Shown in pieces: positions 1 through 19,957 of a DNA stretch of 20,765 nt. This stretch comes from a virus, in the IMG/VR virus record IMGVR_UViG_3300045988_172498. One strand, written 5' to 3'. The notes beneath the pieces are model-generated. The model was not told where the DNA came from and ran no database searches. It saw nothing but the letters and a program-made list of their open reading frames with translations. The translations under genes and the position numbers were made by a program. How positions within the stretch are numbered: the first letter of the stretch is position 1; every line of letters begins with the position of its first letter.

Positions 1-214
1 CATGTTTTCTATATTGTATATTGTTATATTAGTTATATTAATAATACATTTTTACCCTTTTTTTCCCCAATAACTATTATATTTTATAACTAATTGGACT
101 ATAGGTATATTATTTTTCATAATCTATACTAAAAAATTCATTATAATTATAATTATTCTGAACGCAGACAAAATTTTTGTCCAAAATCGAACATACGTTC
201 TATACATATTATAC

Positions 215-253
215 AATATAACTAATATAACAATATACAATATAGAAAACATG
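215..253 (-). repeat. Internal inverted copy of the terminal 39-mer (reverse complement of 1..39)
   Basis: 215..253 (AATATAACTAATATAACAATATACAATATAGAAAACATG) is the exact reverse complement of 1..39. The match breaks at position 40 versus 214. Confidence 0.95.
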
Positions 254-314
254 TTCTAAACATTTGTTCTATGTAGATAGATATACATATTATAAATAAA
301 CATATAAAAAAGTG

Positions 315-343
315 TTGACAAGATGGAGTAATCGTGCTATAAT
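315..343 (+). promoter_or_regulatory. Sigma-A-type promoter inside the left ITR, firing inward
   Basis: TTGACA at 315-320, a 17-bp spacer, and TGcTATAAT (extended -10) with TATAAT at 338-343. It is preceded by the TATAAAAAAGTG A-tract box shared with the other early promoters. Confidence 0.8.
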
Positions 344-387
344 ATAGATATAGTAAAGAGAGGTTGACACACAATAAATAAAAATAA

Positions 388-451
388 TAAAAAAGTGTTG
401 ATAAGCTAATTAAAAGATGATATAATATAGTTACAGTAAAGAAAAGAGGTA
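388..451 (+). repeat. Copy 1 of a 64-bp promoter/5'UTR/RBS cassette
   Basis: 388..451 and 829..892 are identical except for 2 mismatches: T/C in the -35 hexamer and G/A in the leader. Confidence 0.9.
398..426 (+). promoter_or_regulatory. Sigma-A-type promoter for ORF 459..794
   Basis: TTGATA at 398-403, a 17-bp spacer, and TGaTATAAT with TATAAT at 421-426. The RBS AAGAGG lies upstream of the ATG at 459. Confidence 0.8.
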
Positions 452-458
452 TTAAAAA

Positions 459-794
459 ATGACAGTATTAGAATTTATTAAAAAAGTAGAAAACGCAGAC
501 AATTGGAACGATATAGAAGTTGATGAATATAAAGAATATTTATCTATATATGGTATTGATTATGATAAATATTATTGTCCAGATTTTATGTGGGACGATT
601 TCTTAGCAGTTGTTAAAGTTGAATTGATTAAATATATAGACCGTAATTCTGAATATAATTACTTTTATAATGATGGTACTGGTGATATTGAATTTGGTAA
701 TGGTTATGAGAATGTTAGTATTTATGATGATAAAGATAATATAGTAAATGTAATTGAAAAACTAACAGAATTTAAAAATATAGTATGTGATTAG
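459..794 (+). CDS. Hypothetical early protein (111 aa), paralog of ORF 19929..20309
   Basis: ATG with RBS AAGAGGT about 8 nt upstream and its own consensus promoter. The N-terminal roughly 60 aa align by eye with the rightmost gene (LEFIKKVENADNWNDIEVDEYKEYL versus LDFINKVETVDKWEDIDEKEYNKNL). Confidence 0.75.
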   Translation: MTVLEFIKKVENADNWNDIEVDEYKEYLSIYGIDYDKYYCPDFMWDDFLAVVKVELIKYIDRNSEYNYFYNDGTGDIEFGNGYENVSIYDDKDNIVNVIEKLTEFKNIVCD

Positions 795-2466: not shown

Positions 2467-2814
2467 ATGAATAACGTACAATTAATAGGTAGATTTGTAA
2501 GGGATATTGAAATTAAAAGTGTTAACGAAAAAACAGTGGTTGCTAATTTTACATTGGCAGTAAATGGTTACGGTGATAAAACAGATTTCATCAATTGTGT
2601 CGCTTTTAACAAAACGGCTGAAAACTTAGCAAAATGGACTAAAAAAGGGGATATTATAGGAATTACTGGAAGTATCACAACAGGAAGTTACGAAAATAAA
2701 AACGGTGCTAAAGTTTTTACTACTGATGTTTTAGTAAATAATTTCACTTTTTTGCCAAATTCTAAAAAAGAAGAAAAGCAAGAAACACAAGACAAACCAT
2801 TTGGTAGATATTAA
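2467..2814 (+). CDS. ssb: Single-stranded DNA-binding protein, bacterial OB-fold SSB family (115 aa)
   Basis: RBS GGAGG upstream. The sequence MNNVQLIGRFVRDIEIKS...VANFTLAV...DFINCVAFNKTAENLAKWTKKGDIIGITGSI...Y matches the canonical SSB OB-fold pattern (N-terminal xxxLIGRL, DFI..V.W.K.AE, KG..I.V.G). It is short and lacks the usual acidic D-D-D-I/L-P-F tip. Confidence 0.85.
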   Translation: MNNVQLIGRFVRDIEIKSVNEKTVVANFTLAVNGYGDKTDFINCVAFNKTAENLAKWTKKGDIIGITGSITTGSYENKNGAKVFTTDVLVNNFTFLPNSKKEEKQETQDKPFGRY

Positions 2815-3563
2815 TGAACAAGAAAAAATCAAGAGGGGCAATGATTGCCTCTCTGACTACTCAAAGACGTAACCTTTTAAGGGGTGGAGCAAATAAAAAC
2901 GAAGTTAACAAACTTTATAGATTGTCTAATACTTCAAGTTTTTCCAATCTTAATGATAAAGAGTTGACAAGTTTATATAATGAGATAAAAAGCTATGGTA
3001 AATTATCAGTTATGCACGATGTACCTTATTCGTTAGATAGTAAAGATGGATTGATACGTTCTTCTACTTATGAAGAAAACGCTCAAAGATACAGAGATTA
3101 TAAAAAGAATGTTCGTGGTATAACATCAACTGTTGAAGAAAATGTATCTATAAATAAAGCTAAAAATTATATTATGATGAAATATAATTCAAATCGTGAT
3201 ATTCACTTAGAAGAATTAGAAACTGCGAAAAGATTTCAAGCTAAAATTTTTGAGAATTTAACATATGTAATTAAACACAATAAACGCACAAGTGATGAAG
3301 AGAAAAAACAATATAATAAACTAGTTAAAAAACTTAATTCTTTAAAACCTGAACAGTTTTTGAAATTTTATTACTCTACTAAAGAGAATAAAATTAATTA
3401 TGATGAACTTGTTAAAGACTCTCCAAAATCGCTAAATTTATTAGTAACACACTCAAATGAACAAGAGGAACTTTTAACAGTTGCTAATAATAGATTAGTG
3501 GATATTGATAAAGAATTATCAGATTTTACAAAAACAGATAGAATTTTTGGAGATAGGAAGTAA
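2814..3563 (+). CDS. Putative terminal protein (249 aa)
   Basis: The gene lies immediately upstream of the protein-primed polB and is translationally coupled to it (TAATG and ATG overlaps). It has a basic N-terminus and a size close to phi29 TP (266 aa). The C-terminal segment LNSLKPEQFLKFYYS...NYDELVKDS resembles my recalled phi29 TP region LKKIPPDDFYELF...FEEFDSEG around the priming serine. Confidence 0.6.
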   Translation: MNKKKSRGAMIASLTTQRRNLLRGGANKNEVNKLYRLSNTSSFSNLNDKELTSLYNEIKSYGKLSVMHDVPYSLDSKDGLIRSSTYEENAQRYRDYKKNVRGITSTVEENVSINKAKNYIMMKYNSNRDIHLEELETAKRFQAKIFENLTYVIKHNKRTSDEEKKQYNKLVKKLNSLKPEQFLKFYYSTKENKINYDELVKDSPKSLNLLVTHSNEQEELLTVANNRLVDIDKELSDFTKTDRIFGDRK

Positions 3564-5413
3564 TGAGTAAATTTTCAACAGTAACATCAAGAAAAAGTAA
3601 AAAAAGAAATAATTCAGAATTTTATTTATTAGCAGCAGATTTTGAAACTACAACAATTTTTGAAAAAAATCTTGATAGAGATATTAATAATAAAAAACTT
3701 GAAACTTGGTTAAATTGCTTTGTAGATATTAGAAAATGCTATGATATTGAAGAATACAGAATTTCAACAAGTACACAAGAATTTTTTGAACAAGTACATA
3801 ATCAGATTGAACAACAAGATAACAATGATGTAATTATATATTTTCACAATTTAAAGTTTGACGGAAGTTATATTTTAAATTATTTTAATTCAATTGGACA
3901 AGATTTTTCAACGTTTATTAACGATATGGGGCAATGGTATTCAATAGAATATACTTATAAAGATTATACTATAGTAATAAGAGATAGTTTGAAAATATTG
4001 AATTTTTCTATAAAACAAATCGGTAAAGATATGTTGAAAACAGTTGAAAAGGGTGTAACACCTTTGACGGAGGAAAAAATTCCTCTTGATGTTTGTTATC
4101 AAAAAGGATATGTTGATTATGTAATTCGTGATGTTGAGATTTTAGCAAAAGCACTTAACAAAATGATTTTTGAACAACATTTTGAAAAATTTACTGCAAG
4201 TAGTCAAGCACTTGCAACATATAAAGAGATAATCGGATTTGATACTTTTAGATGGTTATTTCCAGTTTTAAAAAATGATGAAATTATGCGTATGGGTTAT
4301 CGTGGTGGTTGGACTTATGCAAATCCAGTTTTTCAAAATAAAGAAATCAAGGGTGATATAAAGGTTTTTGATAAAAACTCTATGTATCCAGCTATTATGT
4401 TAAATTATCCTCTACCTTGTGGTTATCCTCGAAAATTAGAATATGATTACACTAAAGAAAAGGAGGATATTATTTTCAAAGAATTTGAAGGGTGTTGTTA
4501 TATTTATAATTTAAATATAGCTTTTGATATAAAAGATAATCACTTACCCTCTATTCAAATTAAAGTTGCAAATAAAGAATATTTTAAAGATAATCAATAT
4601 TTTAAGGATATGATTTTAGCTAATAAAGACAATTTATTTATGTTAGATAAAACTCAACGTGATTATTTAACTACAAGTGGCGGTTTTTATTTTAATATAT
4701 CATTAACAAATTATGATTTGGATTTGATAAAAAGACAATATGATTTCAGAATTATGCCAAATTCAAAGGTTATAAAATATGAATTTACAGCTAAAAAAGG
4801 TATGTTTGACACTTATATTAATCATTATAAAGAAAAAAAGATAGAGGGTAAAAAAATCGGTAACGCAGTAATGACACAAGATGCCAAATTAAAATTAAAT
4901 TCTTTGTACGGTAAATTTGGTACTAAAAAATTGATACAAGAAAAGGAAGTATTTTTTGATGATGATGTACTAAAATTTAAAACTGATTTGGAATTATCAG
5001 AAACAAACGGCGTTTACGTACCCTTGGCAATGTTTGTTACATCAATTGGAAGATGGGAGATTATAAACAATGCTCAAGATAATTATAATAATTTTCTTTA
5101 TAGTGATACTGATAGTTTACATTTATTAGATGAGGGACAAAAAATAAAACTAAATATTGATGAATACAAATTTGGTGATTGGAAAATTGAAGAGCAAGCA
5201 ACAAGGGGTAAATATTTAAGAGCAAAACTCTACATTGAAGAATTGATTGACGGAACTTTATCAGTTAGAGGTGCTGGAATGACGGAAGAAATAAAAAAAC
5301 AAGTCACTTTTGATAATTTTAAATTGGGTGCAAGTTTTGACGGGAAAAAAGCAAGTAAACAAATAAAAGGTGGAGTATTAATATATAATACAACATTTTC
5401 AATAAAAGAATGA
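3563..5413 (+). CDS. Protein-primed family-B DNA polymerase (616 aa), phi29 gp2-like
   Basis: All the expected motifs are visible: Exo I AADFETTT, Exo II FHNLKFDGSYIL, Exo III YVDYVIRDVEIL, motif A VFDKNSMYPA, motif B KLKLNSLYGKFG, motif C YSDTDSL, and KxY KYLRAKLY. Confidence 0.97.
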   Translation: MSKFSTVTSRKSKKRNNSEFYLLAADFETTTIFEKNLDRDINNKKLETWLNCFVDIRKCYDIEEYRISTSTQEFFEQVHNQIEQQDNNDVIIYFHNLKFDGSYILNYFNSIGQDFSTFINDMGQWYSIEYTYKDYTIVIRDSLKILNFSIKQIGKDMLKTVEKGVTPLTEEKIPLDVCYQKGYVDYVIRDVEILAKALNKMIFEQHFEKFTASSQALATYKEIIGFDTFRWLFPVLKNDEIMRMGYRGGWTYANPVFQNKEIKGDIKVFDKNSMYPAIMLNYPLPCGYPRKLEYDYTKEKEDIIFKEFEGCCYIYNLNIAFDIKDNHLPSIQIKVANKEYFKDNQYFKDMILANKDNLFMLDKTQRDYLTTSGGFYFNISLTNYDLDLIKRQYDFRIMPNSKVIKYEFTAKKGMFDTYINHYKEKKIEGKKIGNAVMTQDAKLKLNSLYGKFGTKKLIQEKEVFFDDDVLKFKTDLELSETNGVYVPLAMFVTSIGRWEIINNAQDNYNNFLYSDTDSLHLLDEGQKIKLNIDEYKFGDWKIEEQATRGKYLRAKLYIEELIDGTLSVRGAGMTEEIKKQVTFDNFKLGASFDGKKASKQIKGGVLIYNTTFSIKE

Positions 5414-5445: not shown

Positions 5446-6397
5446 TTACTAAAAATTTATATCTATCTTTAATAAAATCATCTATGTTGTCGCTATCTTT
5501 AATATGGTATGTTGAATAGTTTGTCAAACCATAATTTTTGCCTTTAATTTTACCTAACTTTTCTTCACCTATAGCGATTATAGTATCTCCAGATTTTACC
5601 ATTCTTCCAAAATCAAGATTGAATTTACAAGGTACTAATAACGCTTTGTGAATTTCTGCTATTTTTAACGCTTTGTCTAAATTTTTATCAGTAAATGTGA
5701 CAACTGTATTTTTTAATTGGTCTTTAATTTCTTTTGTAATTTCCATTTTTTTAACCTCTTTTTTTATATCTTTTTTATATCCATTAAGTCCATTCATTTT
5801 TATTATATTTGGATAATCAATATAACAATAGTTTGTATCTACACCACCTTCTTCAGTTGAAGGAATACCGTACCATTTCATAGCATTTGTAAATTGGTGC
5901 ATAGGGTAAATTCCTTTGTAATTTACATATCTTGACCAGTGAGCAATCCAAATATCGTAATTTTTAATATCGTTATAATTAAAATTTCTATTTAAAAATG
6001 CTCTATTAGTATATATTCCTACATAACAACCTAGTTTTTCAATTTCTTTTAGATATTTTGTTGTATAAAATGTTATTTGTGATTTTGTTAGGTTTTTACC
6101 TTTTATACTAAAATCTTCAATATCAAAATAAATAGGATATTCAAATTGTTTATTTTTTATAGCTTGTTTTGTTAGTTGTATTTCAGTATCAATATTTAAA
6201 TAACTTGCAATATAGCAACCTACAGGTATTCCTACTCTTTTACATTCTTTATAATTATAATCAAATGTTTTATCAATGTATCCTCCGTTGTATCCACTTC
6301 CCAAACGTAAAATTGCAAATTGCACTCCAGATTTTTTGGCTTGTTCCCAATTTATTTTTCCATTATATTTTGATACATCAACTCCAATTTTTACCAT
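5438..6397 (-). CDS. Endolysin: N-terminal GH25 muramidase plus a C-terminal domain of about 100 aa, putatively cell-wall-binding (319 aa)
   Basis: The N-terminus MVKIGVDVSKYNGKINWEQAKKSGVQFAILRLG...GCYIASY is typical of glycoside hydrolase family 25 lysozymes. RBS GGAGG is upstream and the start overlaps the stop of the upstream membrane-protein gene (TAATG). This is the last gene of the late operon. Confidence 0.88.
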   Translation of the reverse strand: MVKIGVDVSKYNGKINWEQAKKSGVQFAILRLGSGYNGGYIDKTFDYNYKECKRVGIPVGCYIASYLNIDTEIQLTKQAIKNKQFEYPIYFDIEDFSIKGKNLTKSQITFYTTKYLKEIEKLGCYVGIYTNRAFLNRNFNYNDIKNYDIWIAHWSRYVNYKGIYPMHQFTNAMKWYGIPSTEEGGVDTNYCYIDYPNIIKMNGLNGYKKDIKKEVKKMEITKEIKDQLKNTVVTFTDKNLDKALKIAEIHKALLVPCKFNLDFGRMVKSGDTIIAIGEEKLGKIKGKNYGLTNYSTYHIKDSDNIDDFIKDRYKFLVKK

Positions 6398-6708
6398 TAT
6401 TTTACCTCCAATAATATATATTTTTCATAAATTTGTTGAACGTGTCCATTTCCATTTAAATTTTTATAACAAGTATATAATACATTTATAGCTTTTAATT
6501 CATCATTATAAGTGTATCCACGCTCTAGTGCTTTGTCAATTCTAGTGTCGACTAATTCGCCAATTATGATTTTGTTACATTGAGTTTGTAATTCTTGATT
6601 GTGAATTACTTTTTTAATTTTATCTATTAAATATTTAATAGCTTTGAATAAACTGACACCAAATATAGCGTAAACTATATTATTTACATTTATAATTTTA
6701 TCTATCAT
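6397..6708 (-). CDS. Small membrane protein coupled to the endolysin, putative holin (103 aa)
   Basis: A single N-terminal hydrophobic helix (IVYAIFGVSLFKAIKYLI) is followed by a charged soluble tail. The stop overlaps the endolysin start. The holin call is positional, and I cannot name a family. Confidence 0.45.
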   Translation of the reverse strand: MIDKIINVNNIVYAIFGVSLFKAIKYLIDKIKKVIHNQELQTQCNKIIIGELVDTRIDKALERGYTYNDELKAINVLYTCYKNLNGNGHVQQIYEKYILLEVK

Positions 6709-6722
6709 ACATTTTTACTTCC

Positions 6723-7808
6723 TCAAATAATATTGTTTAGTTGTTCCATTACATTATATTTTACCTCAAATGATGAATAAATGATATCATTTAAATAAAA
6801 TTTATCTCTTAACATTTTAGATATAAAGTGACTTCTTGATAAATATGTTGACTTATCACTAATCAAATTCTTATCAAATGTAATATTATTTAAATTCTTT
6901 TCATATCCACTATCAAAATAAATCATATCTCCAGTTTGAAATATACTGTAAATGTTGTTATTTCCACAATCTATTTGATACAATTTTAATTTACCATCTT
7001 TTATCTTTTTAACGTTTGAATAATTATTCACTGTGAACTCATTTTCAACGTTACTTTTAAAAATTTGACTGTCTTGCATAATCTTTAACAAGGGGTTATT
7101 GTCTAAACTTTCACGTGATAAGTCTATAGGTTTATTGGGTGCTATATGAATTACAACTCCATACTTTTTTAAATAATTATATTCTTTTGTATTCTTGTCG
7201 TTATAGTCAAATCGAAAATATGCAAAATATGGATTGTTTGTATTTGTGGCATTTGCAAGCATAAACACTTTTACTTTATCTCTTTTTCTAAAAACTGAAC
7301 TCATAAATTGAAATAATAAATCGACTTCGTTAGGTAAATAACGTAAATTTCTGTCCATTTCATCTATTAAAAATTCATCAAATAAAACTGTGTCTACTTC
7401 ATCATATTCACTTCCCTTTAATTTAATTGATGTTGATAAAGATTTCAAGTAAATTATAACTTTATCATTTAATATAATTCTTTTTGAGTTTATTTTTAAT
7501 TCATTTTCAATATTATTACCCATAAATCGTATTGAGGTTTCGGCTCTACTATTTTTGGTTTCTATTTCCTCAAAATTTTTAAATACTTGTCTTAGAATTT
7601 CAGTAGGAAAAAATTTTTCCTTATCAATTCCCAAGAGTTCACTATCTCTACGTCTTAAATATATACTTTTACTTCCTTTATAGATTGCTTGTTCTAACAT
7701 ATATTTTTTTACAGCAAATGTTTTTCCTACACCACGTGCTCCAATAACCATATTTAACATAGAATTATAACTTAATAATTTATCTAATTTATAATAATTA
7801 GTTATCAT
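6723..7808 (-). CDS. DNA encapsidation (packaging) ATPase, phi29 gp16-like (361 aa)
   Basis: Walker A VIGARGVGKT and Walker B VLFDEF are present. Long stretches match my recalled phi29 gp16: KLLSYNSMLNMVIGARGVGKTFAVKKY versus KMLSYDRILNFVIGARGIGKSYAMKVY, and YLPNEVDLLFQFMSSVFRKRDKVKVFMLANATNTNNPYF versus YIPNEVSALLNLMDTVFRNRERVRCICLSNAVSVVNPYF. Confidence 0.95.
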   Translation of the reverse strand: MITNYYKLDKLLSYNSMLNMVIGARGVGKTFAVKKYMLEQAIYKGSKSIYLRRRDSELLGIDKEKFFPTEILRQVFKNFEEIETKNSRAETSIRFMGNNIENELKINSKRIILNDKVIIYLKSLSTSIKLKGSEYDEVDTVLFDEFLIDEMDRNLRYLPNEVDLLFQFMSSVFRKRDKVKVFMLANATNTNNPYFAYFRFDYNDKNTKEYNYLKKYGVVIHIAPNKPIDLSRESLDNNPLLKIMQDSQIFKSNVENEFTVNNYSNVKKIKDGKLKLYQIDCGNNNIYSIFQTGDMIYFDSGYEKNLNNITFDKNLISDKSTYLSRSHFISKMLRDKFYLNDIIYSSFEVKYNVMEQLNNII

Positions 7809-9024
7809 AATTTTTCACCGTAAAATCTTTGAATTTCATATCTTGTTTATAATTCCATATTCTGACACCACTTTTAAATAATTCTTCTATAACTGATAGA
7901 CTTTGTTGTGGTATTTTGTTATTGTTTATAACTACTTTGTTCATCTTAATAAAATTGTATTCACTTCGTCCCTCTTGTAAAAATCTCCACAAATTTGATA
8001 CTTGTTTATTAAGTCTGACACCAAATAATCTAAAATAGTTATAAGCGTTATTTAATGCTATTTTATTACTTATTTTTATATCAAAATATATTCCGTCTAA
8101 TTTATAACCACCTTGAAAAGCAATATCATTTCCTAATTGTTGTATCGTGTTCGGTCTGTTGTACATATCCCCCAAGCTTGCGTTATATCCCCTCAAACCT
8201 TGTAGATAATTTAACTTTGATTTGTAATTTGATAAAGTAACACTTGCTAAATTCATATCGTTAACTTGACTTTGTTGCTCTTTTAACATTTGTCCTTTTT
8301 CATAACCAAAAATTCCACTCATTATATTAGCACCAAGTCCAAGTGTTCCACCTAAAATGTTGCCCATACCAATTCCTAATAATGAATTTGCAACTCCAAA
8401 ACCTGTGTTTACCAAATTTTGTGTGTTTTGGAAATCTATATTTGCTAATGAAAATTGATTATTCATTAACGTTCTTTGTGTATTCAAGTTGTTTTGTTTG
8501 TTAATCATATCAGCATTTTCATTGAACGTTTGTTTTTGTGCCTCTATTTGATTTTTATTAGCTTGCATAAAACTTGCAACACTATCAGTTATGATTGGCA
8601 TACTTCGTGGAGTTTTATCTATAAATCCAGTCTTTATTTCGTTATGTTCTCTTAAATATTTATTATATCTTTTATAATGTTTTCTTTTGTCTTCTTCGGG
8701 TTCTATAGTATTTTCTGATTGCTCAATAAAATAATTTTTTAATGTATAATGAACTTGGTTATTGTCGGATATACTTCCTCTAACAACTAGGTAATTATCT
8801 TCATTTTTTAAAAACTTAATATCATAGTTATAACTATTTCCATAGTTATCACGCATTAAGAGGTCTACAAATTCTGTAGACATTAATTGCGGCTCAAAAT
8901 TCTTTTCATCTATTAAATAATCTAAGTCTTTTATAACTTCTTTTTTTGCAATTTCTATCAAGTTACCTATATGGAACTCTTGTTCTCTGAACTGGTAACT
9001 TCCTTTATAGTGTATAATCTTCAT
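7798..9024 (-). CDS. Tail knob protein, C-terminal half (408 aa): phi29 gp9 C-terminal-like, with a Gly-rich hydrophobic segment
   Basis: RBS AAGAGGT is upstream. By eye it matches the recalled C-terminal half of phi29 gp9. VRGSISDNNQVHYTLKNY matches VRGSLGVSNKVAYSVQDY. The Gly/hydrophobic stretch GFGVANSLLGIGMGNILGGTLGLGANIMSGIFG matches GIMGMIGGGISAGASAAGGSALGMASS. NTIQQLGNDIAFQGGYKLDGIYFDIK...YNYFRLFGVRLNK...YNFIKMNKVVINNNKIPQQSLSVIEELFKSGVRIWN matches [27 protein letters not shown]...FFHKYGYKINR...[35 protein letters not shown]. Confidence 0.7.
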   Translation of the reverse strand: MKIIHYKGSYQFREQEFHIGNLIEIAKKEVIKDLDYLIDEKNFEPQLMSTEFVDLLMRDNYGNSYNYDIKFLKNEDNYLVVRGSISDNNQVHYTLKNYFIEQSENTIEPEEDKRKHYKRYNKYLREHNEIKTGFIDKTPRSMPIITDSVASFMQANKNQIEAQKQTFNENADMINKQNNLNTQRTLMNNQFSLANIDFQNTQNLVNTGFGVANSLLGIGMGNILGGTLGLGANIMSGIFGYEKGQMLKEQQSQVNDMNLASVTLSNYKSKLNYLQGLRGYNASLGDMYNRPNTIQQLGNDIAFQGGYKLDGIYFDIKISNKIALNNAYNYFRLFGVRLNKQVSNLWRFLQEGRSEYNFIKMNKVVINNNKIPQQSLSVIEELFKSGVRIWNYKQDMKFKDFTVKNYDN

Positions 9025-9050
9025 TTATATAACCTCTTTAAATATAAATA

Positions 9051-10952
9051 TTATGCTTTGTCTATTTGGTCTGGGAATTGTGGATTTCTTTTTGCTATTG
9101 CTTTATATACAGCGTTAATATTATCATAGTATCCTTTCCAATATCCTTTACCCCAAGCATAACCATCTAACGCTTGACAATATGATAACAAGGTTGTTTT
9201 TCCTTGCACTTTATAAACGTGAGTAATTAAGTATGTGAAATCATCGAAGAATACATCAATTGTATCATATTTAACATAGTAACCACCTTCATTACGAGGT
9301 CGTGGTGAACCTCTGTGCCTTTTGTTCGCATTTTGAGGATTTCCACCTCCGCCCGGATAGGTAATTCCTCCCCAATTATTTTCGACTTTTGAACGATTGG
9401 AAGAATTTCCCCAAAAACTTTCTTCGTAAAGTTGTGCAAGAGCAAACGAAGGTTTTATGTTACGTTTGTTACAATATGCAATTAATTTTTTCAAATTATC
9501 GACACTGATATTGCCATTTGGCATACTCAAACCACTTGATACGTTAACTTTTTGCCAATCTGTATTACCTGCTGATTTCGGTACACATTTAAAAAGATAA
9601 GGATAAGGGTCTGTTGTCGCATTTGTTCCACTGAACGTATGTTCATTTGTTGTATTAAGTTGGAAGTGCAAATGTGGTCCCGTACTTCTTCCAGTATTTC
9701 CACTTAAACCTATTTTTTGTCCTTGTTTTACTGTGTCACCAACATTGACAAGTCTTTTATTTAAGTGACCATAGACTGATAAATAATTATCTCCGTTTGT
9801 ATGTTTGATAACTATTAGATTACCAAATCCGCCTTGATTAAGTTCTGAACGTTTGACAACTCCGTCACGAACTGCGTATATCGGTAGATTTTCAACACCT
9901 TTTGTGGATAAGTCAAGCCCCCAATGTTTTGTGTGTCCTCCAACGCTGTAATTTGGGTCAAGGTAAGTCGCAGAAATTCGCCATTTACTGCTATCCGTTC
10001 CAAGTGGTAAAAATGGGCAAGAACCATCGGGATTTGTTGGGTTAATTCCGTCTGCTATTTCGCTATCACTATCAGAACCTACACCTACAATTTCAAAATA
10101 GTGGTTTGATAGGACGATAGGTTCTTTGTCTAAAGTTTCACCAAGTCCTAAAAATTTTGTAGTATAAATGTTAACACAATTATTAACTGTATTTGTATCT
10201 TCTGTAAATGAATTTGTTAATTCGTGAATTAAGTCCTCAAGATTGGTATTTTCAATTGTTACCCCTCCAACTTGAACAGAATATCCGTATCCCTCCTCTG
10301 TGATTGGATATAAAAAGTAAGAGTATGGTTTATATGTTCCTGAAAATGTTCCGTCAAATTTTCTTGAGCCTAATTTTGTTCCACTTTTCATAACAAAAAC
10401 AAGCCAAGTTACATTATTATTAAAATAAGTTGTTTTTTTATTTATTTTATATCCTGTATCAAATCCTTGATTGAGTGGTACAACATTGTTATAATATTGA
10501 TTATTTCTTTTAATGTGACCTTGTTCTATGATACCACTAATATTATCAAAATCAAGTGACAAGTGATAAGTTTGCCAATAATCTATTTCAAATATAATCT
10601 TTGTAGTATTATAATTAATATATTCTATATCTATTACAAACGCATAATACCAAAATCCCTCAACATTTTTAAATCTAATATAAGTAATAAATTTGTTGTC
10701 TTCTTTATTACCTTTAATCAATAAATAATTAGTATTTTTTATATATGCTTGTGTAGTTTCCTTTATCTTTGGTGTTAATATATGCGTGAAATAATATTCT
10801 TGTTCTAAATCATTATTAAATTTAATTACGTCTAAATTATCAATTGTAAACGGTGTTTTTTCGTAAATTTGTAACTCCGTATCTTTGATTTTATTCTCCA
10901 AATTTTCCTTGTCCAACAAAAACACCACCTTTTCTAATTTGACAACTTCCAC
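9051..10952 (-). CDS. Tail knob N-terminal half fused to an M23 peptidase and a glucosaminidase (GH73-like) domain (633 aa); tail-associated peptidoglycan hydrolase
   Basis: - Residues about 1-295 resemble the phi29 gp9 N-terminus: EGFWYYAFVIDIEYINYNTTKIIFEIDYWQTY versus [31 protein letters not shown], and VNIYTTKFLGL versus VNMYVTDYIGL.
- Residues about 312-455 carry the M23 motifs HWGLD (HxxxD) and GPHLHF (HxH).
- Residues about 480-633 carry FALAQLYEESFWGNSS...NNWGGI, like the glucosaminidase motif AQ..ESgWG.S...NN.FGI.
- The annotated start is GTG at 10952 with no obvious RBS and a 62-nt overlap with the upstream ORF. An in-frame TTG at about 10901, preceded by AAGGAAA, is an alternative start. 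Confidence 0.8.
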   Translation of the reverse strand: MEVVKLEKVVFLLDKENLENKIKDTELQIYEKTPFTIDNLDVIKFNNDLEQEYYFTHILTPKIKETTQAYIKNTNYLLIKGNKEDNKFITYIRFKNVEGFWYYAFVIDIEYINYNTTKIIFEIDYWQTYHLSLDFDNISGIIEQGHIKRNNQYYNNVVPLNQGFDTGYKINKKTTYFNNNVTWLVFVMKSGTKLGSRKFDGTFSGTYKPYSYFLYPITEEGYGYSVQVGGVTIENTNLEDLIHELTNSFTEDTNTVNNCVNIYTTKFLGLGETLDKEPIVLSNHYFEIVGVGSDSDSEIADGINPTNPDGSCPFLPLGTDSSKWRISATYLDPNYSVGGHTKHWGLDLSTKGVENLPIYAVRDGVVKRSELNQGGFGNLIVIKHTNGDNYLSVYGHLNKRLVNVGDTVKQGQKIGLSGNTGRSTGPHLHFQLNTTNEHTFSGTNATTDPYPYLFKCVPKSAGNTDWQKVNVSSGLSMPNGNISVDNLKKLIAYCNKRNIKPSFALAQLYEESFWGNSSNRSKVENNWGGITYPGGGGNPQNANKRHRGSPRPRNEGGYYVKYDTIDVFFDDFTYLITHVYKVQGKTTLLSYCQALDGYAWGKGYWKGYYDNINAVYKAIAKRNPQFPDQIDKA

Positions 10953-11676
10953 TATTTGAGCTATTTGTGTCTGTAAATTTCATTAAATCTATATCTTGAA
11001 ATACTCCATTTTTTCTAATCTTTAAAAATCCACTACTAGTATTTAAAGTTTTAAAAATTTGACCTTTTCTAATTGCGAATGGTCTGAATTTTTGAGGTTT
11101 TGGTGGTGGAGGTGGTAGGATAATTTGTTCTATTTTTAGATAAATAGATTTTGGATATTTTGGGTTATCTCCAGATAAAATAAATCTTACCCACTTTACG
11201 TTTTGTCCTACTGTAAATGTTTTTGAAAATGAAGAACTTTTACAACCATTTCTCCAAGTCAAACCGCCATTTCCGTCTTCTTTGTATAAAAAAGGTAAAT
11301 ACCAATTGTGCGTTAATACTTTTTCATTTTGTATTACTTTATATTTACTGTCATCAGATTTTGCATTTGGGTCATCACTTGTTGCAATTTCCAAAAACCA
11401 ATCATATTTACCGCTGTAGTTTACATAAGTTTTGTCATAAATCGGTTTCGCAGTTTTAAAATTTAGTACAATTGGTGCCAAACTACATTCAAGTGTTACA
11501 ACTCTATCGTTATTTTTAAAACGAATACCTTTTGCAAATCCACTTTTATTTGCTCTTTCAAGATTGACGTTGAAGGGATAAGGTTTAACCTCTCCCCCAA
11601 CTAACGCAACGTCTTGTGCCGTTCCAGTTTTAGCAAATCCTCCGTAAAATTGATAAAATTTTGTCCAATCTCCCAT
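10891..11676 (-). CDS. Hypothetical tail/receptor-binding-module protein (261 aa)
   Basis: The gene is tightly packed in the tail module. The composition is beta-rich, with a PPPPPKP linker followed by three copies of an IRKG/NG(V/I)F motif. No family recognised. Confidence 0.6.
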   Translation of the reverse strand: MGDWTKFYQFYGGFAKTGTAQDVALVGGEVKPYPFNVNLERANKSGFAKGIRFKNNDRVVTLECSLAPIVLNFKTAKPIYDKTYVNYSGKYDWFLEIATSDDPNAKSDDSKYKVIQNEKVLTHNWYLPFLYKEDGNGGLTWRNGCKSSSFSKTFTVGQNVKWVRFILSGDNPKYPKSIYLKIEQIILPPPPPKPQKFRPFAIRKGQIFKTLNTSSGFLKIRKNGVFQDIDLMKFTDTNSSNSGSCQIRKGGVFVGQGKFGE

Positions 11677-11678
11677 TT

Positions 11679-12401
11679 TTAAATACCACCTATTAAATCA
11701 TTTTCTTTATTTGCTTTACTTGTTCTGATGTAATGTTCTTCATCTTGTCCAAATAAATTTATATTACCAACGGCAAAACCTAAACCATCTTTCAAGTAAT
11801 TTCCGTCAATTACTCCCCTATCTTTCAAATCATTATATAGATTTTTAATAAAGTTTAGTAATTCATTATCAATTTTTCCATCATTAATACTACCTTGTAA
11901 ATTCTTTATTTGTTGTTCAAGATTTGTTATTTTATCTCCAAGGTTTTTTAATTCTTGTTCAATAGTGTTAAGTCTTTCGACTAAATTACCAAGTGAATTT
12001 TTAAGTTTTTCAATTTCTTTTTTATTATTTTCAATATCACCTTGCATTTTATCAATAATTGGTTTCAATTCTTGTTCATACCAATCACGTATAATTTTCA
12101 AAATGATATTTTTAAATTCATCACTTTTTACATATTGCCTTATCAAGTCGGGTATTAATTCTTCTAATAAGTTTGTTAAATTATTTTTAAATTCTTCAAA
12201 TTCTAAAGACTGATTGATAAAATCATCTAATAGGTCTTTGAATGCTCTTTGTAACCAAGCTAATAATTCATAAATACTTTGTGAATTATCTAATGATGTT
12301 GGGAGGTGTGGTATCATCCCCCAACGTCTAATCCAATATTGATTATATCTATCTTTGTATTCTCTGAAATAATCATCAGTTATATTATCTATATATTTCA
12401 T
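11679..12401 (-). CDS. Coiled-coil tail/fibre-associated protein (240 aa)
   Basis: The central heptad-like region (KKEIEKLKNSLGNLVERLNTIEQELKNLGDKITNLEQQIKNL) suggests a coiled coil. The gene lies between the fibre and the other tail genes. The assignment is positional. Confidence 0.5.
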   Translation of the reverse strand: MKYIDNITDDYFREYKDRYNQYWIRRWGMIPHLPTSLDNSQSIYELLAWLQRAFKDLLDDFINQSLEFEEFKNNLTNLLEELIPDLIRQYVKSDEFKNIILKIIRDWYEQELKPIIDKMQGDIENNKKEIEKLKNSLGNLVERLNTIEQELKNLGDKITNLEQQIKNLQGSINDGKIDNELLNFIKNLYNDLKDRGVIDGNYLKDGLGFAVGNINLFGQDEEHYIRTSKANKENDLIGGI

Positions 12402-12413: not shown

Positions 12414-14486
12414 CTAATTAACTCTTGTTAATTGTTCTATTTTAGTTACATAAAAACTATTATTTACATCATCTTCAACTTTTGCTCTATAAAGTATTTT
12501 ACCTTCAGCTTGTAAAATATCTTGAACTATCCTGTATTTTCCGTCATCATCATTAATTACTAATAATCTTTCACTGTTTTTGTCAAAATTACTAACTTTA
12601 CTTTTATCTATAGTTATATTACTATTAGAATTTGAAGTAGTAAATATAGTGTCTCCATATTTTTTGTCAAGATCAATATAATTGTTATAGTTAAAACCAA
12701 ATGAACCAGCAGAAAAAGTAGATTTTGAATAATTATATTCCCACAAAACTGTTCTTTTAAAATTATCTATTTTTATATTTAAATCTGAATATTTTTCATT
12801 TACTTTGTCAATTTCTGTAACTAACTCATATTTATTAATTTTGTTATCTAATTCATTACTTATTTTTGATATACTTTCTGTATTAGATTTTATTGAATTA
12901 ATATTACTTTGTAGATTAGTTATATCAGATATACTGTGTGTATGTGATAAATTAGCTTTTTTGTCAACATTAGCTTGTACATTAGCTAAATCATTGTTAC
13001 TAGCTTTTTCAGCGAGTTTAGTTTCAAGATTAATGACATCAGTTATTGCATGAGTGTGTGACTTATTAGCTTTTTTATCCAAATCTATTTTATCAGCTTT
13101 TGAATTCAAATCAGTTTTTGTTATAACGTCAGTTTTATTAGCTTTATTTGATAAAGTTGTTTCTAAATTAGTTATATCTGATATATTATGTGTATGTGTT
13201 TTATCTGCTTTATTATCTAAATCTATCTTATCAGCTTTTGAACTTAAATTTTTTTGATTAGTGTTAACTTTATCACTAAGCGACGATAAGCTTGAATTAG
13301 TAGTAGAAATTTTATTTTCTAAATTTGTTTCTTTGTCTTTTAAATCTTTTTCTAATTGTGTAATTTTATCACTTGTAGTAGTTATTTTTGTCTTTAAAGT
13401 TGATAATGTTTCATTAGTAGTTTCTAATCCTTTTTCGTTATTTTCAACTTTGGATTTTAAAAGATTAAATTGTGTTACGTCTACATTTGTATCACTTGAT
13501 GAATTTTCAAGAATTTTTGATAATGAACTTTCAATATTTTTTATTTTCTCTTGTGCTAATGCTAAAGAATTTTCAGTATTAGTTGTATTTTCTTTATTTT
13601 CTGCTATTCTTGAATTATAATCTTCTAATTTTGTATTAATTGTATCAATAGAACTTTTATTGTCTTTTGATTTTGTATTAATACTTTTAATTTCTACATT
13701 AGCAGTTTTAATTTTATTTTCTAATTCTGTATCTTTATCTCTTAAATCTTTTAAATTAATATCATTTGTTGTGAATTTACTATCGTATTCAATATCTTTA
13801 TCCTTTAAAGATTTTATATCTTTTTGAATTTCTGTTAGCTTTTCATTACTTGTAATGTTTTTCTTTATATCTTCTATACTTGATTTTAATTCATTTATAG
13901 AATTTTCATTTTGTGATTTTATACTATTAATTTCATTTGTAGTATTTTTTATATCAGTTATATTTTGTTCAACTTTATCTATTAAAGTATATAATTTATC
14001 TTTATCCTCTGTTGTAGTATTTTCTAACTTTTCTATCTTTTCAATAGTTTTGTTTATCTCTGATATTTTTTCATTCATTGTATCAGATAAATTATTAAAA
14101 CTTTCTATCTTTTTATTCCAGTTGTTATAATTATCTTTTCTTTCGTTTTCGGCTTTTTCAATTTCTGATATCTTTTGTTCTATTTCTTTGAATTTTTCGT
14201 TTCTTTGATTTTCATTTTCAATATAATTTTTATTGCTTGATTTTCTTTTATTTTCGTTTTCTATTCTTTCAAGTTCATTTTGTAGTCTTTGAGTTTCTGC
14301 TTTTATTCTTTTTGTTTCTGCTAAAACTCTTTCTTTTTCAGAATTAACGATAATTTCTGCCTCATCTGAATAAACTTTAAAATTATTTAATTCATTCAGA
14401 ATATTTTCGATAACTCTATCTATATTAGATACATTATTGAAATATAATTCATCAGAATTACAAGAGCAATTACAATTCTTCTTCAA
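12414..14486 (-). CDS. Tail fibre/appendage protein (690 aa): long coiled coil plus H-T-H fibre repeats
   Basis: About 430 aa of K/E/N-rich heptad-like sequence is followed by three copies of KA(D/N)xxHTHxI(S/T)D(I/V)xNL(E/Q), which resembles the phage tail fibre repeat (Pfam Phage_fiber_2 type). A globular tail of about 130 aa ends the protein. A head-fibre role cannot be excluded. Confidence 0.6.
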   Translation of the reverse strand: MKKNCNCSCNSDELYFNNVSNIDRVIENILNELNNFKVYSDEAEIIVNSEKERVLAETKRIKAETQRLQNELERIENENKRKSSNKNYIENENQRNEKFKEIEQKISEIEKAENERKDNYNNWNKKIESFNNLSDTMNEKISEINKTIEKIEKLENTTTEDKDKLYTLIDKVEQNITDIKNTTNEINSIKSQNENSINELKSSIEDIKKNITSNEKLTEIQKDIKSLKDKDIEYDSKFTTNDINLKDLRDKDTELENKIKTANVEIKSINTKSKDNKSSIDTINTKLEDYNSRIAENKENTTNTENSLALAQEKIKNIESSLSKILENSSSDTNVDVTQFNLLKSKVENNEKGLETTNETLSTLKTKITTTSDKITQLEKDLKDKETNLENKISTTNSSLSSLSDKVNTNQKNLSSKADKIDLDNKADKTHTHNISDITNLETTLSNKANKTDVITKTDLNSKADKIDLDKKANKSHTHAITDVINLETKLAEKASNNDLANVQANVDKKANLSHTHSISDITNLQSNINSIKSNTESISKISNELDNKINKYELVTEIDKVNEKYSDLNIKIDNFKRTVLWEYNYSKSTFSAGSFGFNYNNYIDLDKKYGDTIFTTSNSNSNITIDKSKVSNFDKNSERLLVINDDDGKYRIVQDILQAEGKILYRAKVEDDVNNSFYVTKIEQLTRVN
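12883..13258 (-). repeat. Three tandem in-frame repeat units inside the fibre gene
   Basis: At DNA level, TTATC-AAATCTAT-TTATCAGCTTTTGAA and GTGTGTATGTG-type blocks recur. At protein level the units are SKADKIDLDNKADKTHTHNISDITNLETTLSNKA, SKADKIDLDKKANKSHTHAITDVINLETKLAEKA and DKKANLSHTHSISDITNLQSNI. Confidence 0.8.
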
Positions 14487-19502: not shown

Positions 19503-19957
19503 ATTTTTACACCTCTTAATTTCCAATCTATACCATAACAATTCCATAAATAACAACATTTATAATTATCATATTTCATAATAATAAATTTTTCATTATA
19601 ACTTATTAATTTACCCTTTTTCTTTTCATAAATTTTTCCTCCTCTTGTTTCTTCTGTAATTTCAGTTAACAAATATCTTTTGTTTAACTCAACTTTATTT
19701 TTTAAAAAATAGTATTTATTTTTATAATTACCATTTATTAAATCAATCTTTTCCTTTTCACCTCTTTTATAAAGTCTATTTTTTAATCGTAAATCGTTCA
19801 ATTCTTTATCCATTACTATTTTATGTAATGTAGATTGATAGCACGTTCTATCAGTTTCCTCAAGGATAACATTCATTACCCTTGAGAAATTGGTATCTTT
19901 ATATTTTTTTATAATTTCCTTTACTTTGTTATGCTCTTCTTGTGACCATCTTGCCAT
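19499..19957 (-). CDS. Early protein with an N-terminal SANT/Myb-like motif (152 aa), possible DNA-binding regulator
   Basis: ARWSQEEHNKVKEIIKKY fits the W-(S/T)-x-E-E start of SANT/Myb repeats. RBS AAGGA is upstream. The rest is basic and Lys-rich. Confidence 0.55.
   Translation of the reverse strand: MARWSQEEHNKVKEIIKKYKDTNFSRVMNVILEETDRTCYQSTLHKIVMDKELNDLRLKNRLYKRGEKEKIDLINGNYKNKYYFLKNKVELNKRYLLTEITEETRGGKIYEKKKGKLISYNEKFIIMKYDNYKCCYLWNCYGIDWKLRGVKI

What the first reader, a model, noticed from the sequence alone, without database searches (positions are those of the whole stretch)
7798..10952. phi29-type tail knob split into two ORFs, with M23 peptidase and glucosaminidase domains fused to the N-terminal half
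- In phi29 the tail knob is one protein of about 600 aa (gp9), and the tail lysin (gp13, lysozyme plus M23 peptidase) is a separate protein at the knob tip.
- Here the first roughly 295 aa of ORF 9051..10952 look like the gp9 N-terminal half. The ORF then continues into an M23 metallopeptidase (HWGLD...HLH) and a GH73-like glucosaminidase (AQLYEESFWG...NNWGG), and stops.
- 26 nt later a new ORF with its own RBS (7798..9024) resumes with sequence resembling the gp9 C-terminal half. That half includes the Gly-rich hydrophobic segment (aa about 205-240, nt 8305..8412) that in phi29 gp9 has been described as a membrane pore-forming loop.
- This looks like a lysin module inserted into, and splitting, the knob gene. 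It would covalently attach two cell-wall hydrolase activities to each knob subunit.
- I cannot tell from memory whether this architecture has been described.
Basis: partly seen in the sequence, partly recalled or inferred. Interest (0 to 1): 0.72.

Follow-up and report, generated by a model that had tools for sequence, protein, structure and literature searches.

The report
Split phage tail knob carrying wall-cutting enzymes
In this small phi29-like phage the gene for the tail-end "knob" is interrupted by two cell-wall-cutting enzyme domains and broken into two genes, which is real but matches a layout already seen in Clostridium perfringens and pneumococcal phages, so it is a new member of a known design.

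Summary
ORF1 (9051..10952, minus strand) has three parts: aa 24-299 match the phi29 gp9 N-half, aa 342-437 are an M23 peptidase with all catalytic motifs, and aa ~471-633 are a GH73 glucosaminidase. ORF2 (7798..9024) is the gp9 C-half and includes the Gly-rich hydrophobic membrane loop.

The stop codon, 26-nt spacer, ribosome-binding site and ATG are conserved in four independent metagenome assemblies. All segments are under strong purifying selection, so this is not a sequencing error.

The architecture is not new:
- C. perfringens podoviruses (phiCP7R and relatives, published 2012) have an adjacent pair: tail domain + lysozyme + M23 (529 aa), then a gp9-like protein (399 aa). Both were found in virions.
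- Cp-1/Cp-7/SOCP, this phage's closest cultured relatives, split the knob at the same site with lysozyme and CHAP domains.
- A 2024 review describes split knobs in Gram-negative phi29-like phages.

An exhaustive search shows a whole clade with interchangeable lysin cassettes at one site (about gp9 residues 277-298). Some members are single ~1040-1300-aa chains and others are split. The specific feature here is the cassette content and order (M23 then GH73).

Most likely function: a two-protein hexameric knob that carries its own tail lysins, replacing the free gp13. Interest is modest.

The parts
9051..10952 (-). ORF1: knob N-half fused to M23 peptidase and GH73 glucosaminidase. It is 633 aa from GTG at 10952. 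The likely real start is TTG at 10916 or 10919 (621 or 622 aa), behind an AAGGTGG-like ribosome-binding site. It overlaps the upstream gene, which ends at 10891.
10056..10883 (-). Knob N-terminal half (ORF1 aa 24-299): tail-tube-like beta-sandwich plus the following segment, equivalent to phi29 gp9 residues 8-294.
   Evidence: PF16838 42 bits. phrog_2248 positions 5-256, E 1.6e-27. 5fb4 E 3.3e-13. Foldseek 5fb5 E 2e-10 and Andhra knob 8egs E 2e-7.
9978..10055 (-). Ser/Asp/Gly/Pro-rich linker (ORF1 aa ~300-325) between the knob N-half and the M23 domain. It is the least constrained segment.
   Evidence: Sequence. dN/dS 0.12-0.25 against 0.02-0.08 elsewhere. AF2 pLDDT below 50 at model residues 277-296 and 305-331.
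9642..9929 (-). M23 (LytM-type) zinc metallopeptidase domain (ORF1 aa 342-437). HWGLD (HxxxD), the middle His (VYGH) and HLH (HxH) are all present.
   Evidence: PF01551 E 1e-27. LytM and Csd1 alignments show the conserved motifs. Foldseek hits to LytM and lysostaphin.
9054..9542 (-). GH73-type N-acetylglucosaminidase domain (ORF1 aa ~471-633), with the catalytic-Glu motif AQLYEESFWG and NNWGG.
   Evidence: PF01832 32.6 bits against cutoff 30.2. A profile of this domain family hits GH73 structures: Listeria Auto 3fi7 (E 1.2e-9), FlgJ and LytB. phrog_9205 E 3.6e-33.
9025..9050 (-). 26-nt intergenic spacer between the ORF1 stop (TAA, 9053..9051) and the ORF2 ATG (9024). It contains the Shine-Dalgarno AAAGAGG at 9039..9033. 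ORF2 is not in frame with ORF1.
   Evidence: Conserved in four independent assemblies.
7798..9024 (-). ORF2: knob C-terminal half (408 aa), equivalent to phi29 gp9 residues ~300-599. Its 3' end overlaps the gp16 packaging ATPase gene (6723..7808) by 11 nt.
   Evidence: phrog_2248 positions 283-577, E 3.1e-38. PF20934 40.4 bits. 5fb4 E 7.9e-7. 31% identical to Cp-1/Cp-7 ORF19 over 94-96% of its length.
8215..8514 (-). L-loop (channel loop) region of ORF2 (aa 171-270). It is predicted as a long helical hairpin and is about 72 aa longer than in phi29.
   Evidence: (helices 157-215 and 224-289, low confidence).
8296..8412 (-). Gly-rich hydrophobic core of the L loop (ORF2 aa 205-243, VNTGFGVANSLLGIGMGNILGGTLGLGANIMSGIFGYEK, 28% Gly). 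It is the candidate membrane-inserting segment.
   Evidence: it holds the highest Kyte-Doolittle windows of ORF2 and aligns with the most hydrophobic stretch of gp9 (about 429-470).

Best explanation
The window is a complete linear genome of an uncultured phi29-like phage. Its closest cultured relatives are the pneumococcal Cp-1-like phages.

**What it is.** The distal tail knob is built from two polypeptides rather than one.
- ORF1 supplies the collar-proximal tube-like N-half. A flexible Ser/Asp/Gly linker then connects an M23 endopeptidase and a GH73 N-acetylglucosaminidase.
- ORF2 supplies the C-half, including the hydrophobic Gly-rich channel (L) loop.
- The two genes are adjacent and presumably co-transcribed. 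ORF2 has its own ribosome-binding site.

**How it most likely works (inferred).**
1. Six ORF1 and six ORF2 chains assemble into a gp9-like hexameric tube.
2. This places six copies of each hydrolase on the knob.
3. After adsorption the GH73 domain cuts glycan strands and the M23 domain cuts peptide cross-links of a Gram-positive wall. That lets the tail reach the membrane.
4. The ORF2 loops are then extruded and insert into the membrane to form the DNA channel, as in phi29.
5. The fused cassette takes the role of the free-standing tail lysin gp13, which this genome lacks.

**How it arose.** The phage belongs to a clade whose knob gene carries an exchangeable lysin cassette at one fixed site (about gp9 residues 277-298). 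In different lineages the gene stayed as one chain of ~1040-1300 aa, or broke into two ORFs either after or inside the cassette.

**Shown versus inferred.** Domain identities, the shared insertion site, conservation of the split, purifying selection and intact catalytic motifs are shown. Co-assembly, stoichiometry, enzyme activity, position of the enzymes on the knob and order of events are inferred.
For: - **Complementary halves of one family.** ORF1 matches phrog_2248 positions 5-256 and ORF2 matches 283-577. Against phi29 gp9, ORF1 matches residues 8-294 and ORF2 matches 322-586. Foldseek of the ORF1 model hits gp9 and the Andhra knob.
- **Enzyme domains look active.** The M23 HxxxD, middle His and HxH motifs align with LytM. 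The GH73 catalytic Glu is invariant in the domain family, and the profile hits Auto, FlgJ and LytB structures.
- **No other tail lysin.** No other late gene has a lysin domain. A separate holin-like gene and a GH25 endolysin cover lysis from within.
- **The split is real and selected.** The junction is conserved in four assemblies and dN/dS is 0.02-0.08. The same N-M23-GH73 + gp9_C pair occurs in a relative with only 45% identity in the N-half (L011).
- **Single-chain relatives exist in the same syntenic slot.** L010 is a 1039-aa N-GH73-M23-gp9_C ORF. P0123, P0124, P0126, P0127, P0129, P0131, P0132, P0137, P0139 and P0140 are similar.
- **One insertion site in all lineages**.
- **Published support.** In phiCP7R the analogous 529-aa tail-domain + lysozyme + M23 protein and the 399-aa gp9-like protein were both detected in purified virions by mass spectrometry (PMC3362512; gene layout). 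AlphaFold3 6+6 models of split knobs from Gram-negative phi29-like phages give a knob with beta-sheets shared between the two proteins (PMC11476376).
- **Knob topology and loop extrusion** are taken from PMC9710869 and PMC6542822.
Against: - There is no direct evidence for co-assembly, stoichiometry or activity in this phage.
- The AF2 model of ORF2 alone was unusable (pLDDT 40). The ORF1 model is only moderate (pLDDT 61). No complex could be modelled.
- The GH73 Pfam score is only just above threshold. The C-terminal YA(T/A)-type motif is diverged in the window sequence (GYAWGKGY against DYAASGY in relatives), so glucosaminidase activity is less certain than M23 activity.
- Where the cassette sits on the assembled knob (lateral or distal) is unknown.
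- The host is unknown.
Confidence: 0.8

Rival explanations
1. ORF1 is functionally a gp13-type tail-tip lysin that merely carries a tube-like N-terminal anchoring domain, present in low copy number. ORF2 alone forms a reduced knob. This is essentially how the 2012 C. perfringens paper read the two proteins.
For: PMC3362512 treats the 529-aa protein as the gp13 analogue and the 399-aa protein as a 'much smaller' gp9 homologue. In Andhra the tip lysin is only a dimer that plugs the knob.
Against: - ORF2 lacks the whole N-terminal beta-sandwich that contacts the lower collar and forms the proximal ring. In Andhra gp12 the C-terminal chain returns to complete the N-domain sheet.
- The ORF1 N-half covers about 275 residues of gp9, not just a short anchor.
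- Single-chain relatives contain N-half, cassette and C-half in one polypeptide, which forces 1:1 stoichiometry.
Confidence: 0.1
2. The split is an assembly or sequencing artefact or a recent pseudogenisation. The real gene would be one ~1040-aa ORF.
For: Single-chain versions exist in related phages. In the old Cp-1 record the upstream gene was wrongly split into orf17 and orf18, and this was corrected in SOCP and Cp-7.
Against: - The identical TAA, 26-nt spacer, Shine-Dalgarno and ATG occur in four independent assemblies that differ from the window by 8-9% in nucleotide sequence.
- Both ORFs are under strong purifying selection.
- The same split is present in the 45%-identity relative L011, in Cp-7/SOCP and in phiCP7R.
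- The ORF2 frame is closed by TAA immediately upstream of its ATG.
Confidence: 0.02
3. The M23 and/or GH73 domains are catalytically dead and serve only as cell-wall-binding or structural decorations of the knob, like the LytM-domain activators EnvC and NlpD.
For: Degenerate LytM domains are common; EnvC and DipM appear among the structural hits. The GH73 score is marginal and the distal motif is diverged.
Against: - All zinc-ligand and catalytic residues of M23 are present and align with active LytM.
- The GH73 catalytic Glu and the NNWGG block are invariant.
- dN/dS is 0.02-0.08.
- No other virion lysin is encoded.
Confidence: 0.08

Closest known systems
Clostridium perfringens podoviruses phiCP7R, phiCPV4, phiZP2, phiCP24R and phiCPV1 (Guelinviridae): gp20 'peptidase' (529 aa) plus gp19 'tail protein' (399 aa)
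   Same: - The upstream ORF is a knob N-terminal domain plus two peptidoglycan hydrolase domains, one of them M23.
- The immediately adjacent downstream ORF of about 400 aa is the gp9 C-half.
- The insertion maps to the same gp9 site.
- Both proteins are virion components.
   Different: - The glycosidase is a Phage_lysozyme (PF00959) rather than GH73.
- The order is glycosidase then M23, as in gp13. The window has M23 then GH73.
- The N-half is shorter and more diverged.
- Genome organisation differs: their knob genes lie next to the capsid gene, not next to the ATPase gene.
- The published description did not frame the pair as one split knob.
Streptococcus phages Cp-1, Cp-7 and SOCP: ORF18 (520 aa) plus ORF19 (612 aa) 'tail proteins'
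   Same: - They are the closest cultured relatives: major capsid protein 52% identical and ORF2 about 31% identical to ORF19.
- Gene order around the knob is identical: phrog_17155, phrog_15030/7782, N-half, C-half, gp16 ATPase, holin, endolysin.
- The knob is split at the same insertion site with two hydrolase domains.
- The L loop is long.
   Different: - The cassette is Phage_lysozyme2 plus CHAP.
- The ORF break lies inside the cassette, so lysozyme stays on the N-half and CHAP on the C-half. In the window both enzymes are on the N-half and ORF2 is enzyme-free.
phi29 gp9 tail knob plus free gp13 tail lysin
   Same: - Same knob fold halves and hydrophobic L loop.
- Same pairing of a glycan-cleaving domain with an M23 endopeptidase at the tail end.
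   Different: - phi29 gp9 is one 599-aa chain.
- gp13 is a separate protein (Phage_lysozyme2 then M23) that binds non-covalently at the knob tip.
- The window has no gp13 gene and uses GH73.
[quoted passage not shown] 2024
   Same: The knob is encoded as an N-part protein and a C-part protein. The split is attributed to insertion of foreign domains, and a 6+6 assembly has been modelled.
   Different: The inserted domains are Ig-like rather than hydrolases, and they sit on the C-part protein. The hosts are Gram-negative.
Metagenomic single-chain knobs with an internal lysin cassette (for example P0134/L010, P0123, P0124, P0126, P0139)
   Same: Same clade by N-half similarity (33-40% identity). 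Same insertion site and the same repertoire of cassette domains (GH73, M23, CHAP, lysozyme2).
   Different: One uninterrupted ORF of 1039-1302 aa. None was found among cultured phages in the collection searched.

Membership tests
phi29 gp9-type tail knob (Pfam PF16838 + PF20934; PHROG 2248) | N-terminal tail-tube-like beta-sandwich domain | tested here: met
   ORF1 aa 24-131 match PF16838 at 42 bits (cutoff 27). 5fb4 E 3.3e-13. Foldseek 5fb5 E 2e-10.
phi29 gp9-type tail knob (Pfam PF16838 + PF20934; PHROG 2248) | C-terminal gp9 domain | tested here: met
   ORF2 matches PF20934 at 40.4 bits (cutoff 27), phrog_2248 positions 283-577 at E 3.1e-38, and 5fb4 at E 7.9e-7.
phi29 gp9-type tail knob (Pfam PF16838 + PF20934; PHROG 2248) | Hydrophobic Gly-rich L (channel) loop between the two C-terminal blocks | tested here: met
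   ORF2 aa 205-243 align with the gp9 429-470 hydrophobic stretch and are the hydrophobicity maximum of ORF2. This is sequence-level evidence only.
phi29 gp9-type tail knob (Pfam PF16838 + PF20934; PHROG 2248) | Single polypeptide of about 600 aa | tested here: not met
   There are two ORFs, separated by a stop codon and a 26-nt spacer, with about 340 aa of foreign domains between the halves.
phi29 gp9-type tail knob (Pfam PF16838 + PF20934; PHROG 2248) | Hexameric tube at the distal tail, attached to the lower collar | not testable with these tools
   No multimer modelling was available, and the ORF2 monomer model was poor.
Peptidase M23 (LytM / lysostaphin type) | HxxxD and HxH zinc-binding motifs plus the catalytic His | tested here: met
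   HWGLD, VYGH and HLH align with the LytM motifs. PF01551 scores 96.6 bits.
Glycoside hydrolase family 73 (PF01832 glucosaminidase) | Profile match above the curated threshold, and the catalytic Glu in the A-Q-x-x-x-E-S-x-W-G motif | tested here: met
   32.6 bits against cutoff 30.2. Glu is invariant in the domain-family alignment, and the profile hits Auto 3fi7 at E 1.2e-9 with the motif aligned.
Glycoside hydrolase family 73 (PF01832 glucosaminidase) | Distal Y-A-(T/A)-type motif of the active-site cleft | tested here: inconclusive
   Relatives have DYAASGY. The window has GYAWGKGY: the Tyr and Ala are kept but the context is diverged.
phi29 gp13-type tail lysin | Free-standing protein with N-terminal Phage_lysozyme2 and C-terminal M23 | tested here: not met
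   M23 is present, but it is fused to the knob N-half, it precedes the glycosidase, and the glycosidase is GH73 rather than PF18013. It likely works like gp13 but is not a member.
Split knob with lysin cassette (phiCP7R gp20+gp19; Cp-7 ORF18+ORF19) | Upstream ORF is knob N-half plus hydrolase domain(s); the adjacent downstream ORF carries the gp9 C-half | tested here: met
   for the window. for the reference phages.
Split knob with lysin cassette (phiCP7R gp20+gp19; Cp-7 ORF18+ORF19) | Foreign sequence inserted at the same point of the gp9 fold | tested here: met
   In a joint alignment all extra sequence maps after PZA gp9 residues ~277-298 in the window, L011, L008, Cp-7, phiCP7R and seven single-chain forms. 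Alignment fuzziness is about 20 residues.
Split knob with lysin cassette (phiCP7R gp20+gp19; Cp-7 ORF18+ORF19) | Both polypeptides present in the virion | not testable with these tools
   Shown by mass spectrometry for phiCP7R only (PMC3362512).

The most novel reading that the evidence does not exclude
The site at about gp9 residues 277-298 may be a clade-wide docking point for interchangeable tail-lysin cassettes.
- Cassettes seen there include GH73, lysozyme2, PF00959 lysozyme, M23, CHAP, Amidase_5 and a GDSL-like domain.
- Some appear shared with siphophage tail lysins and prophage lysins.
- The gene seems to have broken into two ORFs, or re-fused, several times.

On this reading, a covalently attached six-copy lysin array is a widespread alternative to the low-copy gp13/LysT tip complex. 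The pattern has not been described as such. The window would be its M23-first, GH73-second version.
Probability: 0.5. Interest if true: 0.45.

Novelty: new member of a known kind. Interest (0 to 1): 0.3.

Why it matters
**For this window alone.** The knob of Cp-1-like and Clostridium-type picoviruses should be annotated as a two-gene unit that carries the tail lysins. The current labels 'tail protein' plus 'peptidase' hide this.

**More broadly.**
- The family survey suggests that one surface site of the phi29-type knob tolerates large enzymatic insertions, both as one chain and as two.
- That is useful for engineering host range or wall-penetration modules into small therapeutic podoviruses.
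- It also offers a natural series (free gp13, single-chain insertion, split) for studying how virion lysins are positioned and released.
- The M23-GH73 cassette is a candidate enzybiotic against an as yet unknown low-GC Gram-positive host.

Tried and rejected
- **Megablast of 7000-12000 against cultured phages:** no match. The phage has no close cultured relative at the DNA level.
- **The search for homologous proteins with the whole ORF1:** swamped by M23 proteins. Only P0001 shared the architecture.
- **The same tool with the N-half typed as letters:** returned nothing, not even the 96%-identical P0001. I treated this as a tool failure, and one search was wasted. The exhaustive representative search replaced it.
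- **phmmer of the GH73 domain alone against PDB:** no meaningful hit. A family profile was needed.
- **AF2 of ORF2 with 21 sequences:** pLDDT 39.8, so unusable and no fold search was run on it.
- **Foldseek of the ORF1 model:** the top 50 hits were M23 and gp9, and GH73 structures did not appear. GH73 therefore rests on sequence profiles.
- **Frameshift or readthrough fusion of ORF1 and ORF2:** rejected. ORF2 is out of frame and a TAA sits directly upstream of its ATG in the ORF2 frame.
- **Host inference from endolysin relatives in bacterial genomes:** only 35-39% matches to the GH25 domain in assorted gut metagenome-assembled genomes (Ruminococcus, Clostridia, Bacilli, Muribaculaceae). Inconclusive.
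- **Literature searches for an explicit description of a lysin cassette inserted in the knob of Gram-positive phi29-like phages:** none found. The library lacks most subscription-journal papers, so absence is not proof.
- **The NJ tree of N-halves:** has no support values. I use it only as a hint that split and single-chain forms are interleaved.

Full report
**1. Setting**

The window has about 25% GC. Its ends carry a 382-nt perfect inverted terminal repeat, extending to 457 nt at 96.5% identity. It is therefore a complete linear genome.

It encodes a protein-primed type B DNA polymerase, an SSB, a phi29-type connector, a lower collar, a gp16-type packaging ATPase, a GH25 endolysin and a weak scaffold-protein match. 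The major capsid protein is 52% identical to that of the pneumococcal phages Cp-1, Cp-7 and SOCP. These are the closest cultured relatives. At the DNA level no cultured phage matches.

**2.

ORF1 (9051..10952, minus strand):
- It is 633 aa from the first GTG, or 621-622 aa from the TTG codons preferred by gene callers on near-identical contigs.
- aa 24-299 match phi29 gp9 residues 8-294 (5fb4, E 3.3e-13).
- They also match positions 5-256 of the 590-position knob family phrog_2248 (E 1.6e-27) and Pfam Caud_tail_N.
- A moderate AF2 model (pLDDT 61) retrieves gp9 (5fb5, E 2e-10) and the Andhra knob (8egs, E 2e-7) by Foldseek.
- aa 342-437 are a Peptidase_M23 domain (E 1e-27). HWGLD, the middle His and HLH align with the LytM catalytic residues.
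- aa ~471-633 match Pfam Glucosaminidase just above threshold (32.6 against 30.2 bits).
- A profile built from this domain and 11 relatives hits solved GH73 enzymes: Listeria Auto 3fi7 (E 1.2e-9), FlgJ and LytB. The catalytic Glu of AQLYEESFWG is aligned and invariant.

ORF2 (7798..9024):
- It matches phrog_2248 positions 283-577 (E 3.1e-38), Pfam phi29_gp9_C, and gp9 residues 322-434 and 470-586.
- Between those two blocks lies the Gly-rich hydrophobic segment at aa 205-243 (28% Gly, the hydrophobicity maximum of ORF2). It aligns with the hydrophobic core of the gp9 L loop.
- In this clade the loop is about 72 aa longer than in phi29.

The two ORFs are thus the two halves of one knob family, with about 340 aa of foreign sequence between them.

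**3. The split is not an artefact**

- The ORF1 stop (TAA, 9053..9051), the 26-nt spacer with AAAGAGG and the ORF2 ATG recur unchanged in function in four independent assemblies. These differ from the window by 8-9% at the nucleotide level (L003, L005, L006, L007).
- dN/dS against three of them (L003, L005 and L007) is 0.05-0.07 for the N-half, 0.06-0.08 for M23, 0.02-0.03 for GH73 and 0.03-0.04 for ORF2. Only the Ser/Asp/Gly linker is relaxed, at 0.12-0.25.
- A relative with only 45% identity in the N-half (L011) has the same pair: 631 aa N-M23-GH73 followed by 401 aa gp9_C.
- ORF2 is out of frame with ORF1 and is preceded by an in-frame TAA. A frameshift fusion product is therefore not expected.

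**4. What the surroundings and relatives show**

The late operon has no other lysin-domain gene. A holin-like gene and a GH25 endolysin lie downstream of the ATPase gene. The fused cassette is therefore the only candidate virion-associated wall hydrolase.

An exhaustive HMMER search with the N-half found 719 homologues. Domain mapping of the closest ones gave three classes.
- **Canonical knobs of about 600 aa.**
- **Single chains of 1039-1302 aa with a lysin cassette between the N-half and C-half.** Cassettes seen are GH73-CHAP, GH73-M23, GH73-GDSL-like-Amidase_5, lysozyme2-CHAP, and one with a weak M23-like stretch followed by lysozyme2.
- **Split forms ending after one or two hydrolase domains.**

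One single-chain form (P0134, N-GH73-M23-gp9_C) sits in a phi29-like contig directly upstream of the gp16 ATPase gene. That is the same slot as ORF1+ORF2 (L010).

In a joint alignment the extra sequence maps to one place, after PZA gp9 residues ~277-298. This holds for the window, L011, L008, Cp-7, phiCP7R and seven single-chain proteins.

A rough NJ tree of N-halves, without support values, groups all insertion-bearing knobs apart from canonical ones. It interleaves split and single-chain forms. The window falls with the two other M23-first proteins.

The M23-then-GH73 unit also exists as a free lysin, for example phiEf11 ORF28 (34% identity over aa 332-595). Bacterial proteins with the same two Pfam domains also occur. 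The GH73-CHAP cassette of P0123 resembles tail and antireceptor proteins of S. thermophilus siphophages. Together these point to cassette exchange with other phage lysins.

**5. What is already known**

- **C. perfringens podoviruses.** Volozhantsev et al. 2012 (PMC3362512) reported that phiCP7R, phiCPV4 and phiZP2, and earlier phiCP24R and phiCPV1, have a 399-aa gp9 homologue that is 'much smaller' than phi29 gp9. They also have a 529-aa protein with a phage-tail domain (1-150), a lysozyme domain and an M23 domain. Both were detected in virions by mass spectrometry. In the phiCP7R genome the two genes are adjacent, and Pfam confirms the domains. The authors compared the 529-aa protein with gp13 rather than calling the pair a split knob.
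- **Cp-1-like phages.** Cp-7/SOCP ORF18 is N-half plus Phage_lysozyme2, and ORF19 is CHAP plus C-half. Gene order matches the window. The literature labels both simply 'tail protein' (PMC4334900).
- **Gram-negative phi29-like phages.** Evseev et al. 2024 (PMC11476376) explicitly describe a knob split into N-part and C-part proteins. They attribute it to insertion of Ig-like domains and model a 6+6 assembly.

I found no paper that describes the lysin-cassette insertion site or the single-chain forms. No cultured phage in the collection has a single-chain form.

**6. Likely mechanism**

Established knowledge for phi29 and Andhra:
- The knob is a gp9 or gp12 hexamer.
- The N-terminal beta-sandwich contacts the collar.
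- The chain runs to the distal end and returns to complete the N-domain sheet.
- Internal helical loops gate the channel and are extruded to form a hydrophobic barrel in the membrane.
- A separate glycosidase+peptidase lysin sits at the tip (PMC6542822; PMC9710869).

By homology, I infer that six ORF1 N-halves and six ORF2 chains form the tube. The flexible linker then presents six M23 and six GH73 domains that digest the wall locally, and the ORF2 loops form the membrane channel. Co-assembly, copy number, activity and the spatial position of the enzymes are not shown.

**7. Verdict**

The architecture is a known solution in Clostridium and Cp-1-type picoviruses, and split knobs have been discussed in print. 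The window adds a different cassette (M23 first, GH73 second, both on the N-half protein).

The broader clade-level pattern is the more interesting by-product: one insertion site, swappable cassettes, and single-chain and split versions. It lies mostly outside this window.

Noticed in passing
window 1..457 and 20309..20765: Perfect 382-nt inverted terminal repeat, extending to 457 nt at 96.5% identity. The window is therefore a complete linear genome. This ITR is long for a phi29-like phage. A 46-nt internal inverted repeat lies within it (1-46 against 207-253).
   Followed up: partly
window 459..794 (+) and 19929..20309 (-): The first gene inward from each genome end encodes paralogous small proteins (36% identity over 70 aa, E 1e-9). 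The terminal symmetry therefore extends beyond the ITR into diverged coding sequence.
   Followed up: partly
window 10916..10952: The ORF1 start is ambiguous: GTG at 10952 (633 aa) against TTG at 10919 or 10916 (622 or 621 aa, used by gene callers on near-identical contigs). An AAGGTGG-like ribosome-binding site precedes the TTG codons. The gene overlaps the end of the upstream 261-aa gene (stop at 10891).
   Followed up: partly
window 12414..14486 (-): A 690-aa coiled-coil protein with phage tail repeats (PF12789), presumably the appendage or fibre. The syntenic gene in the otherwise ~92%-identical contig L005 is only 600 aa, so this gene is a length-variable hotspot.
   Followed up: no
window 10891..11676 and 11679..12401 (-): Two conserved proteins of unknown function (phrog_7782/15030 and phrog_17155) sit directly upstream of the knob genes. 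They are shared with Cp-7 ORF17 and ORF16, where they are annotated 'Appendage'. Their role in the tail is unknown.
   Followed up: no
window 8215..8514 (ORF2 aa 171-270): The channel (L) loop of the Cp-1-like clade is about 72 aa longer than in phi29, with roughly 36 extra residues on each side of the hydrophobic core. This would give a longer helical hairpin, perhaps matched to a thicker wall.
   Followed up: partly
L010 9113..12232; proteins P0123, P0124, P0126, P0127, P0129, P0131, P0132, P0134, P0137, P0139, P0140: Single-chain knobs of 1039-1302 aa carry an internal lysin cassette, including one with GH73, a GDSL-like esterase and Amidase_5. They were found only in metagenomes, and no cultured phage in the collection has one.
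   Followed up: partly
L002 (Cp-1 NC_001825) 2588..4032: The reference Cp-1 record still splits the N-half+lysozyme gene into orf17 and orf18. SOCP and Cp-7 have one 520-aa ORF, and the SOCP paper notes the difference. This is likely an old sequencing error in Cp-1.
   Followed up: partly
L013 (phiEf11) 5941..7206: phiEf11 ORF28 is a free M23+GH73 lysin in the same domain order as the window cassette (34% identity). It lies beside the lysis genes of a temperate Enterococcus siphophage.
   Followed up: no
tool behaviour: the search for homologous proteins given the N-half as plain letters returned no hit, although the 96%-identical P0001 is in the database and had been found. That null result should not be trusted.
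   Followed up: no
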